Shown here one piece after another: positions 2,013 to 2,534 of a stretch of 64,000 bases of DNA (the first letter of the stretch is position 1; every line of letters begins with the position of its first letter). Origin of the DNA: a virus (lineage: Duplodnaviria; Caudoviricetes). The stretch lies in IMG/VR virus record IMGVR_UViG_3300028800_000093, positions 1,370 through 65,369 of that record. One strand, given 5' to 3'. Made by a program: the position numbers and the translations under genes. Below the pieces are notes generated by a model that was given only the letters and a program-made list of their open reading frames with translations, was not told the DNA's origin and ran no database searches.

Positions 2013-2224
2013 TATCTACCTGCCTTGGGCACATAAGGCCCTGCAATGTTCCAATCGTCATCGAGATCACGGTCGTCGTGTATTCCATTCGCATCATACG
2101 AGTTGTTATTGGCTTTGTCAATGAAACAATGTCCGCCTGGTGACATGGGCATTGAGCGCACGAGAATCACTTTACCGTCGTTGCGCACATACTTCTGGCC
2201 GTCTCTAAGTGTCAGTTCGTCCAT
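2012..2224 (-). CDS. hypothetical protein
   Basis: GGAG RBS, coupled ORF. Confidence 0.7.
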   Translation of the reverse strand: MDELTLRDGQKYVRNDGKVILVRSMPMSPGGHCFIDKANNNSYDANGIHDDRDLDDDWNIAGPYVPKAGR

Positions 2225-2534
2225 TGGTATCTCCCATTAGGCGGTTGATTGCTTCGTGATCTACCTTGGTGACACGCACTTTCATTTCGATTGGTTCGTA
2301 TCTGCCAAGCACGTTGAGAGGTTTCAGGTCATATGGCTCGCCGGTTGTTTTGTCATTGATTGACCAGCTTGTTTGGTCGAATGTGCCGATAAGCTGACCG
2401 TTGATGTAAACCTTTGCACGGGCACCAGTGAATACCTTTGTGGCTTTCTTGGCAGTCCATGTGAATGGGAATGCGGCCATTGCTGCGAGCCCGAGCATAC
2501 CGCGTATAAAGCCACGACGATTAATGGTGTTCAT
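2205..2534 (-). CDS. Tat-signal protein carrying a truncated tail-tube paralog domain
   Basis: NRRGFI plus h-region; then 17/27 identity to the N-terminus of the tail tube at 38382-38858; GGAGG RBS. Confidence 0.8.
   Translation of the reverse strand: MNTINRRGFIRGMLGLAAMAAFPFTWTAKKATKVFTGARAKVYINGQLIGTFDQTSWSINDKTTGEPYDLKPLNVLGRYEPIEMKVRVTKVDHEAINRLMGDTNGRTDT

What the first reader, a model, noticed from the sequence alone, without database searches (positions are those of the whole stretch)
2205..2534. Twin-arginine signal fused to a truncated copy of the phage's own tail tube
Seen: the protein starts MNTINRRGFIRGMLGLAAMAAF, a Tat-type RRxF motif plus h-region. It continues KVFTGARAKVYINGQLIGTFDQTSWSI, which matches tube residues KILTGARAKILINGALVGLFSQCTWSI (38382-38858) at 17/27 positions. 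After a short insertion, PLNVLGRYEPIE matches PQFILGRYNPAE. Only the N-terminal third to half of the tube is kept. The gene lies 36 kb from the tube gene, in a sigma70-driven early array. Inference: this is a repurposed tail-tube mimic sent to the envelope. It could cap or poison incoming tubes (superinfection exclusion), decoy a host sensor of tail proteins, or block tail assembly of competing phages.
Basis: partly seen in the sequence, partly recalled or inferred. Interest (0 to 1): 0.82.

Follow-up and report, generated by a model that had tools for sequence, protein, structure and literature searches.

The report
Exported fragment of phage tail tube
A large soil phage carries a small, conserved extra gene that joins a twin-arginine export signal to the front part of its own tail-tube protein; this combination has not been described, and its job (perhaps blocking rival phage tails at the cell envelope) is untested.

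Summary
ORF 2205-2534 (-) encodes 109 aa. Residues 33-97 match the N-terminus of the window's tail tube (38382-38858, -): BLASTP E 5e-14, 0 of 2000 shuffles reach the score. The tube call is sound: the gene follows a sheath homologue, its profile hits PDB 8q01 'Tail tube protein', and its fold matches tubes and Hcp.

The ORF is not a decaying fragment. I assembled 12 family members of 66-121 aa, all from metagenomes. All 12 keep RRxF, exactly 11 residues, then an invariant Pro. In 11 of 12 a basic cluster follows, then the tube N-terminal motifs. pN (0.36-0.44) is far below saturated pS (0.77-0.88).

The Tat reading is strong by motif but not formal. The window protein scores 19.6 bits against a Pfam cutoff of 22.7, and no cleavage site is clear.

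The gene is a rare accessory. A full-length copy was found in 2 of 22 related phage records. Two other records hold signal-less short versions.

The 'sigma70 early array' claim is not supported. Function is inferred only: an envelope-directed tube mimic, most likely for superinfection exclusion (about 0.3-0.35). No paper describing such a fusion turned up.

The parts
2205..2534 (-). Complete gene for the 109-aa Tat-signal/tube-N protein
   Evidence: ORF list. There are 12 family members with the same architecture. pN is far below pS between three orthologues. Contig pieces of four other metagenome runs that overlap the ORF are identical to it.
2451..2534 (-). Residues 1-28: twin-arginine-type signal. 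It holds RRGFIR, an 11-residue Ala/Gly-rich h-region, an invariant Pro23 and PFxW; the basic cluster KKATK begins at residue 29, just outside this part.
   Evidence: Pfam TAT_signal E 8.6e-4, 19.6 bits, below the 22.7 cutoff. It matches 8 of 11 family members at E<=0.1, best 7.8e-6. TIGR01409 matches 5 of 11. R6, R7, F9 and P23 are invariant. The RRxFxx-to-Pro spacing is fixed at 11 residues in 12 of 12 members.
2244..2438 (-). Residues 33-97: domain homologous to the N-terminal ~55 residues of the phage's tail tube (strands 1-5 of the tube model)
   Evidence: BLASTP E 5e-14; shuffle z 18-20; hhalign of family against tube profile gives probability 98.3%, E 1.4e-14 over 44 columns; all 11 of 11 members hit main tubes at the tube N-terminus.
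2538..2542 (-). GGAGG ribosome-binding site 3 nt before the ATG. The ATG (2534-2532) overlaps the TGA (2533-2531) of the upstream ORF 2531..2794.
   Evidence: Read directly from the sequence.
38382..38858 (-). Main tail tube gene (158 aa), the apparent evolutionary source of the domain
38870..41659 (-). Tail sheath gene directly upstream of the tube
   Evidence: 37% identity, E 4e-151 to the annotated tail sheath of Myxococcus phage Mx1.

Best explanation
The ORF is a real accessory gene under purifying selection, found in a clade of ~155-170 kb contractile-tailed soil phages distantly related to Myxococcus phage Mx1. It arose from the main tail-tube gene. The first ~55-85 tube residues were kept: the strands that carry the tube's most conserved N-terminal motifs, and possibly the helix in some members. 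The C-terminal half of the beta-sandwich was lost. A twin-arginine (Tat-type) signal was placed exactly on the tube's N-terminus. Shown here: the homology, the family, the invariant RRxF-11-P signal architecture, the selection and the patchy distribution. Inferred: the host Tat pathway takes the protein out of the cytoplasm. It then stays either as a soluble periplasmic protein or tethered to the inner membrane by an uncleaved signal. There it presents a tube-subunit interface to the tube tip, tube initiator or tape-measure channel of an incoming related tail and blocks genome delivery. That would be superinfection exclusion by self-mimicry. I put about 0.85 on the descriptive part, about 0.65 on real Tat-dependent export, and about 0.3-0.35 on the exclusion mechanism.
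For: Homology to the tube:
- BLASTP E 5e-14.
- 0 of 2000 shuffles reach the real score.
- Profile-profile probability 98.3%.
- 11 of 11 members hit main tubes, always from tube residue ~2-9.
- The ESM Atlas feature search leads to T4 gp19 and Hcp clusters at 0.79-0.85; this is a lead only.

Family:
- One 51%-identical protein.
- 9 short RRxF proteins among the 15 hits of the whole-library profile search.
- Orthologues in phage records G001 and G005.

Signal:
- RR, F and Pro are invariant.
- 12 of 12 members have RRxFxx, exactly 11 residues (mean Kyte-Doolittle 1.5-2.75), then Pro.
- 11 of 12 have 2-4 basic residues in the next 12.
- TAT_signal matches 8 of 11 and TIGR01409 matches 5 of 11.
- The family profile's best two PDB hits, both sub-significant, are the CueO Tat signal peptide chain (E 0.13, positions 1-24) and the XkdM tube (E 0.56, positions 27-69).
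- The signal region is more conserved than the rest: 44.6% against 30.7% mean pairwise identity over 66 pairs.

Selection:
- pN 0.36-0.44 against pS 0.77-0.88 in three pairs.
- Intact frames in all members, plus an SD and ATGA coupling.

Accessory character:
- Full-length form in 2 of 22 tube-bearing records searched, and in 1 of the 11 that are at least 90% complete.
- Absent from Mx1 and from G002, whose tube is 71-76% identical.
- Immediate neighbours are not conserved.

Precedent for a lytic contractile phage blocking delivery at the membrane: T4 Imm binds the tape measure protein (abstract of 10.64898/2026.03.06.709160).
Against: - No experiment bears on export or function.
- The window protein scores below Pfam's gathering score (19.6 against 22.7), and TIGR01409 does not list it at E<=1.
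- The 11-residue h-region is short.
- No canonical Ala-x-Ala site follows the Pro. A small-x-small triplet sits inside the h-region in 11 of 12 members (my reading), so cleavage is unresolved.
- The host is unknown, so its Tat system is unknown too.
- The domain is half of a beta-sandwich and is modelled poorly (AF2 pLDDT 39.8; Atlas model 0.37), whereas Tat usually carries folded proteins.
- Two related phages (G013, G014) carry short tube-N ORFs without any signal, so the domain may also act, or merely persist, in the cytoplasm.
- G001's copy is no closer to its own tube (30 bits) than to the window's tube (37 bits). There is therefore no sign of co-evolution with the resident tube.
- PADLOC and PHROGs give no defence or exclusion family.
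Confidence: 0.35

Rival explanations
1. The protein is a superinfection sensor or lysis-timing regulator rather than a blocker. The exported tube-like domain would detect an incoming tail in the periplasm and signal to the lysis machinery, in the manner of the small signal-anchored periplasmic antiholin RI of T4 (RI recalled from memory, not from a call).
For: It rests on the same localisation evidence as the main reading. The size, ~100 aa with an N-terminal signal, is like that of small periplasmic phage regulators. The signal region is more conserved than the mature part, which could reflect a membrane interaction.
Against: No holin, antiholin or endolysin is recognisable next to it. The neighbours are not conserved among the three loci. 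There is no sequence link to any lysis protein.
Confidence: 0.1
2. The N-terminus is an ordinary membrane anchor or Sec-type signal and not a Tat signal. Either the tube-like domain is held at the cytoplasmic face of the membrane, or it is exported unfolded.
For: HMM scores are sub-threshold for the window protein. The h-region is short. There are basic residues on both sides of the hydrophobic stretch. The domain is predicted to be poorly folded on its own.
Against: RR and the following F are invariant in 12 of 12 members at 30-50% overall identity, which an ordinary anchor does not need. The h-region is Ala/Gly-rich and only moderately hydrophobic. Basic residues after the h-region are the known Sec-avoidance feature of Tat signals (recalled knowledge). 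An 11-15 residue stretch is too short for a stable transmembrane helix.
Confidence: 0.13
3. It acts in the cytoplasm. It could be a decoy for a host immune sensor that recognises tube proteins (DSR2-type), or a regulator or poison of tube polymerisation of the phage itself or of co-infecting relatives. The signal would be secondary, or a means of disposal.
For: DSR2 defence proteins are triggered by phage tail tube proteins (abstract starts of PMC10981675 and PMC11087589 in the listing). Signal-less short tube-N ORFs exist in G013 and G014. Tat substrates do spend time in the cytoplasm before export.
Against: The strictly conserved export signal in 12 of 12 members argues that leaving the cytoplasm is part of the function. 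The known DSR2 trigger is a siphophage tube, and no DSR2 link was tested here. The gene is absent from most relatives, so it is not needed for tail assembly.
Confidence: 0.12
4. It is a non-functional remnant of a partial tube duplication that happens to stay open.
For: It is truncated relative to the tube, rare among relatives, poorly modelled, and all ten looked-up clusters are singletons.
Against: Twelve intact members at 30-50% identity share one architecture and invariant residues. pN is about half of the saturated pS. There is a strong SD and translational coupling.
Confidence: 0.03

Closest known systems
Contractile-tail tube proteins (phage 812 tube PDB 8q01; XkdM/DUF2001; T4 gp19; Hcp fold)
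   Same: The mature part is homologous to the N-terminal strands of the phage's own tube and shares its conserved T-G-A-R, I-N-G and L-G-R-Y-x-P-x-E motifs. The tube itself matches these structures.
   Different: Only about 55-85 of 158 residues are kept. The C-terminal four strands are absent, and the helix is absent or uncertain. It carries an export signal, lies 36 kb from the sheath-tube pair, and is dispensable in most relatives. It is a derivative, not a tube subunit.
Twin-arginine (Tat) signal peptides (Pfam PF10518, TIGR01409)
   Same: It has RRxF[ILVM][KRG] within the first 11 residues, an Ala/Gly-rich h-region, a Pro at its end and basic residues after it. The HMMs match most family members.
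   Different: It is very short and of rigidly fixed length, with no clear Ala-x-Ala site after the Pro. It is more conserved than the cargo. The cargo is a viral structural-protein fragment rather than a cofactor enzyme. The window protein is below the curated cutoff.
Phage superinfection-exclusion proteins acting at the inner membrane (T4 Imm, which binds the tape measure protein)
   Same: A small phage-encoded envelope protein of a contractile-tailed phage. The proposed target is the genome-delivery apparatus of an incoming tail (abstract of 10.64898/2026.03.06.709160).
   Different: No sequence relation was found (PHROGs gives only phrog_3776, of unknown function). Imm is not derived from a virion protein and is not a Tat substrate (recalled). 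The exclusion activity of this protein is only inferred.
Second tube paralogue of Mx1-like phages (Mx1 WNM70276.1, beside the baseplate genes; also in G001)
   Same: It is another tube-derived paralogue in the same phage clade.
   Different: That paralogue is full length (140-148 aa), has no signal, sits in the baseplate module, and is more distant from the ORF (27% identity, E 1e-4) than the main tube is (42%, E 5e-14).

Membership tests
Tat signal peptide | Twin-arginine consensus (S/T)-R-R-x-F-L-K near the N-terminus | tested here: met
   N-R-R-G-F-I-R at residues 5-11. RR and F are invariant in 12 of 12 family members.
Tat signal peptide | Score at or above the curated HMM cutoff (PF10518 gathering score 22.7 bits; TIGR01409) | tested here: not met
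   The window protein scores 19.6 bits, E 8.6e-4, and TIGR01409 does not list it at E<=1. Across the family, 8 of 11 match PF10518 at E<=0.1 (best 7.8e-6) and 5 of 11 match TIGR01409 (best 2.9e-4).
Tat signal peptide | Moderately hydrophobic h-region followed by a c-region with a helix breaker and basic (Sec-avoidance) residues | tested here: met
   An 11-residue Ala/Gly-rich stretch (mean Kyte-Doolittle 1.5-2.75) and an invariant Pro. 11 of 12 members have 2-4 K/R in the next 12 residues. That these features are typical of Tat signals is recalled knowledge.
Tat signal peptide | Signal peptidase site (Ala-x-Ala) after the c-region | tested here: inconclusive
   No conserved small-x-small site follows the Pro. 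One lies inside the h-region in 11 of 12 members (my reading). SignalP and TatP were not available.
Tat signal peptide | Export depends on TatABC and on the RR pair | not testable with these tools
   Needs experiment, and the host is unknown.
Contractile tail tube protein | Sequence homology to tube proteins | tested here: met
Contractile tail tube protein | Complete tube fold of ~140-160 aa (two sheets plus helix) | tested here: not met
   Only tube residues ~4-58 align in the window copy. The span reaches ~73 in P0005 and possibly ~87 in G005 at weak z 2.3. The tube model has four further strands at residues 89-136.
Contractile tail tube protein | Gene beside the sheath gene and present in every member of the phage clade | tested here: not met
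   It lies 35.8 kb from the sheath-tube pair. The full-length form is present in 2 of 22 records.
Superinfection exclusion protein (Imm-like) | Sequence membership in a known exclusion family | tested here: not met
   PHROGs gives only phrog_3776 (unknown function, E 0.019). PADLOC gives nothing.
Superinfection exclusion protein (Imm-like) | Expression protects cells from genome delivery by related phages | not testable with these tools
   Needs a plaque or DNA-entry assay.

The most novel reading that the evidence does not exclude
A lytic jumbo-sized phage exports, by the Tat pathway, a fragment of its own tail tube. The fragment would dock by strand complementation onto the tip of incoming tails, or assemble into a mini-ring at the inner membrane. 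This would be the first superinfection-exclusion or superinfection-sensing protein made by recycling a virion structural protein, and a rare phage-encoded Tat substrate. The unusually conserved, fixed-length signal would then double as a membrane tether or interaction module.
Probability: 0.3. Interest if true: 0.8.

Novelty: new variant of a known kind. Interest (0 to 1): 0.6.

Why it matters
Phage proteins that act in the periplasm against other phages are few and mostly found by genetics. A family whose sequence itself names its likely target (the tube interface) and its likely location (Tat export) gives a directly testable model for how genome delivery by contractile tails can be blocked or sensed. 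It also shows a route by which structural genes are recycled into accessory genes. Finally, it adds a viral cargo, and a very short, rigid signal, to the range of Tat substrates. If export fails the test, the family still stands as a conserved truncated tube paralogue of unknown role.

Tried and rejected
- **Named phages.** megablast of window 1-8000 and tblastn of the ORF found nothing. Only the tube hit Mx1.
- **IMG/VR scans.** A scan with the single protein found no relative. With alignment A3 it found G001 and a tube.
- **Bacterial and archaeal species genomes.** Repeated with A1, it matched 186 stretches but confirmed no relative. This used narrow patterns, so it is weak evidence of absence.
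- **Structure of the ORF.** AF2 from 2 sequences gave pLDDT 39.8, which is unusable.
- **Complex prediction, tube plus mature domain.** 'No answer', score 0.00. This is neither for nor against binding.
- **Sequencing runs.** No RNA holder was listed. Contigs of four other rhizosphere DNA runs, laid on 1200-4400, showed no variant inside the ORF, so no population pN/pS was possible.
- **Family scans of neighbours.** Pfam, PHROGs and PADLOC gave no informative function except a HAD/PNK-like phosphatase at 1229..1603.
- **Homology of the C-terminal helix to the tube helix.** Only G005 aligned collinearly (z 2.3; 16 of 500 shuffles reached the score). The other members were inconsistent. I treat this as suggestive only.
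- **Long hits.** There were six. The four I scanned are fn3, MBG or other repeat proteins, and I set them aside as spurious. P0014 and P0017 were not examined.
- **Unexamined hit.** A weak third hit in G005 (127856-128041, 19.4 bits) was not examined.
- **Synteny anchor.** The HAD gene was absent from G002, G003, G005 and G009.
- **PF26461.** This is the precomputed label on tube relatives. It is not in the local Pfam copy, so I could not name it.
- **Literature.** Searches found no paper describing a Tat signal on a tube-derived protein. One search found no paper naming Myxococcus phage Mx1.

Full report
**What is there.**
The window is 64,000 bases of a 65,369-base IMG/VR virus record that CheckV estimates at 39% complete. 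A GGAGG lies 3 nt before its ATG, and the ATG overlaps the TGA of the upstream ORF 2531..2794 as ATGA. The gene sits in a run of small co-directional, often overlapping ORFs. This run lies downstream of a 2135-aa protein (5461..11868) on the same strand.

**The tube gene is a tube gene.**
- ORF 38382..38858 (-) follows a 929-aa ORF that is 37% identical (E 4e-151) to the annotated tail sheath of Myxococcus phage Mx1.
- It is 41.5% identical to the Mx1 gene that follows that sheath.
- It has at least 154 relatives in metagenomes, many on 150-173 kb contigs.
- A 35-sequence profile hits PDB 8q01_A 'Tail tube protein' over nearly its whole length, E 1.2e-5.
- The AF2 model (pLDDT 57.7) is matched by Foldseek to the phage 812 tube (E 3.9e-7), Hcp proteins, and the monocin and diffocin tubes.

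**The similarity is real.**
- BLASTP of the ORF against the tube gives 27/65 identities, E 5e-14, with ORF residues 33-97 on tube residues 5-58.
- None of 2000 shuffles reaches the real score; z is 18 to 21.
- The tube's very first residues align immediately after the signal's basic cluster, so the signal sits exactly on the tube N-terminus.
- On the tube model, the retained part covers strands 11-16, 19-30 and 33-35, the 36-50 loop, strand 51-54 and part of strand 57-65. The helix at 77-85 and the four strands between 89 and 136 are missing.
- In some relatives the collinear match runs further: to about tube residue 73 in P0005 (z 6.8) and perhaps to 87 in G005 (z 2.3, weak).

**It is a family, not a fragment.**
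- A word-indexed search found one relative, P0002 (102 aa, 51% identity).
- A whole-library HMMER search with the two-sequence profile gave 15 hits at E<=0.001. Nine are short proteins of 66-121 aa that begin with RRxF.
- Of the six long hits, the four I scanned are fn3, MBG or other repeat proteins, which I treat as spurious. Two were not examined.
- One of the nine, P0007, is encoded on a 154-kb phage contig, G001, which is 94% complete.
- A twelfth member is in G005, a 138.7-kb record that is 86% complete and whose tube is 85% identical to the window's. There the gene lies about 34.5 kb from the tube, much as in the window.
- All 11 members tested hit main tubes at the tube N-terminus with pairwise E between 4e-13 and 7e-5.
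- The family profile aligns to the tube profile with 98.3% probability, E 1.4e-14.
- Between the three orthologues with DNA in hand, pS is saturated (0.77-0.88) while pN is 0.36-0.44. The frame is therefore under purifying selection; a numerical dN/dS cannot be given.
- All ten clusters I looked up are singletons from metagenomes, so the family is rare.

**The signal.**
- Across 11 aligned members the only invariant columns are R6, R7, F9 and P23.
- With G005 added, 12 of 12 members have RRxF followed by [ILVM] and mostly K/R. Then come exactly 11 Ala/Gly-rich residues (mean Kyte-Doolittle 1.5-2.75), and then Pro.
- 11 of 12 have 2-4 basic and at most one acidic residue in the next twelve. P0010 has none.
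- Pfam TAT_signal matches 8 of 11 members at E<=0.1 (best 7.8e-6), and TIGR01409 matches 5 of 11.
- The window protein itself is below Pfam's cutoff (19.6 against 22.7 bits) and is not listed by TIGR01409.
- The family profile's two best PDB hits, both sub-significant, are a CueO Tat signal-peptide chain for positions 1-24 and the XkdM tube for positions 27-69.
- The signal region is more conserved than the cargo, 44.6% against 30.7% mean pairwise identity. That is unusual for a disposable signal. It hints at a tether or an interaction role.
- No Ala-x-Ala site follows the Pro, so cleavage is unresolved.
- It is the only Tat-like N-terminus in any frame of the window.

**Distribution and context.**
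- From the 55 IMG/VR loci that encode a tube relative, I searched the 22 records of 54 kb or more with the family profile. Every record matched through its tube.
- Only G001 and G005 have a full-length hit that begins at profile position 1. Of the 11 records at least 90% complete, only G001 does.
- Mx1 and G002 (tube 71-76% identical, 96% complete) lack the gene.
- G014 and G013 carry short ORFs of about 80 aa that keep the tube-N motifs but have no hydrophobic signal. G014's ORF resembles the family through to its C-terminus.
- Immediate neighbours are not conserved. Only a HAD/PNK-like phosphatase (1229..1603) and a 141-aa protein (4965..5390) are shared with G001, and nothing is shared with G005. 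The HAD gene is absent from four close relatives.
- The gene is therefore a mobile accessory in a variable small-gene region.
- Promoter-like sites are not enriched (9 against 7.3 +/- 2.4) and none precedes the gene. The claim of a sigma70 early array has no support.
- G001 also has a full-length second tube paralogue, as Mx1 does beside its baseplate genes. The ORF is closer to the main tube than to that paralogue.

**How it most likely works.**
- Shown: a tube N-terminal module fused to a Tat-type signal, conserved and selected, and dispensable for the virion.
- Inferred: Tat takes it across the inner membrane. In the periplasm, or tethered to the membrane, it offers a tube-subunit surface to the delivery apparatus of an incoming related tail and blocks entry.
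- The nearest functional precedent is T4 Imm, which is reported to bind the tape measure protein and so prevent secondary infection. I read only the abstract of 10.64898/2026.03.06.709160.
- I give this mechanism about 0.3-0.35.
- Rivals:
  - a periplasmic superinfection sensor tied to lysis timing;
  - a non-Tat anchor;
  - a cytoplasmic decoy or polymerisation regulator. DSR2-type defences do sense tube proteins, according to the abstract starts listed, but a conserved export signal fits this poorly;
  - a dead remnant, largely refuted.

**Comparison with the known, and novelty.**
- It is not a tube protein: it fails on fold completeness, gene position and universality.
- It is not a member of any exclusion or defence family in PHROGs or PADLOC.
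- It meets the motif definition of a Tat signal but not the curated score.
- Full-text searches for twin-arginine with tail tube and phage (13 papers, none on such a fusion), for superinfection exclusion with twin-arginine and prophage, and for tail tube, paralog, truncated and superinfection exclusion found no description of this architecture.
- I rate it a new variant of known kinds: a tube paralogue, a Tat substrate and possibly an exclusion protein.

**Limits.**
The host is unknown. SignalP/TatP, deeper multimer modelling and any experiment were out of reach. The complex prediction gave no verdict, and no RNA data exist; both are recorded under Tried and rejected.

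Noticed in passing
window 37370-38326 (+): A 318-aa protein on the opposite strand, right beside the tube gene. It has a lipoprotein-like signal ending in a Cys, collagen triple-helix repeats (E 1.1e-12) and a PA14 domain (E 1.5e-12). This looks like a secreted or surface moron inside the tail module.
   Followed up: partly
L086 about 1483-1728 (+) in G014; L098 1333-1623 (-) in G013: Short ORFs of about 80 aa that keep the tube N-terminal motifs of the family but lack any hydrophobic or twin-arginine signal. 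G014's begins with a very basic stretch. They may be signal-loss derivatives or a cytoplasmic sister family.
   Followed up: partly
window 11907-14510 (-): The 867-aa protein matches Pfam Phage_tail_tube_init (E 3.6e-8). It is a candidate partner for any tube mimic.
   Followed up: no
window 4049-4306 (-) and 70-270 (-): An 85-aa Cys-rich protein with a Sec-like N-terminal signal and a 66-aa protein with a hydrophobic segment lie in the same small-gene run. G001's equivalent region also holds several small membrane proteins and a phrog_11227 'protease' homologue (E 2.8e-48) two genes upstream of its copy. The region may be enriched in envelope-directed proteins.
   Followed up: no
window 2093-2121 (-): The best sigma70-like match in 1-6000 (11 of 12; TTGACA, 17 nt, TATGAT) lies inside ORF 2012..2224, downstream of the gene of interest.
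   Followed up: no
window 1229-1603 (-): A HAD/polynucleotide-kinase-phosphatase-like protein (phrog_1238 E 4.6e-10, phrog_415 E 5.8e-8). It is 65% identical to a gene four ORFs downstream of G001's copy but absent from four closer relatives.
   Followed up: partly
window 1200-4400: Near-identical DNA (99% or more) occurs as contig pieces in at least four further rhizosphere metagenome runs of one year. The only four differences lie at 1643-1729.
   Followed up: yes
G005:C1:127856-128041 (-): A third, weak family-profile hit (19.4 bits, positions 26-89) in a 109-aa open frame of G005. It could be another tube-N paralogue.
   Followed up: no
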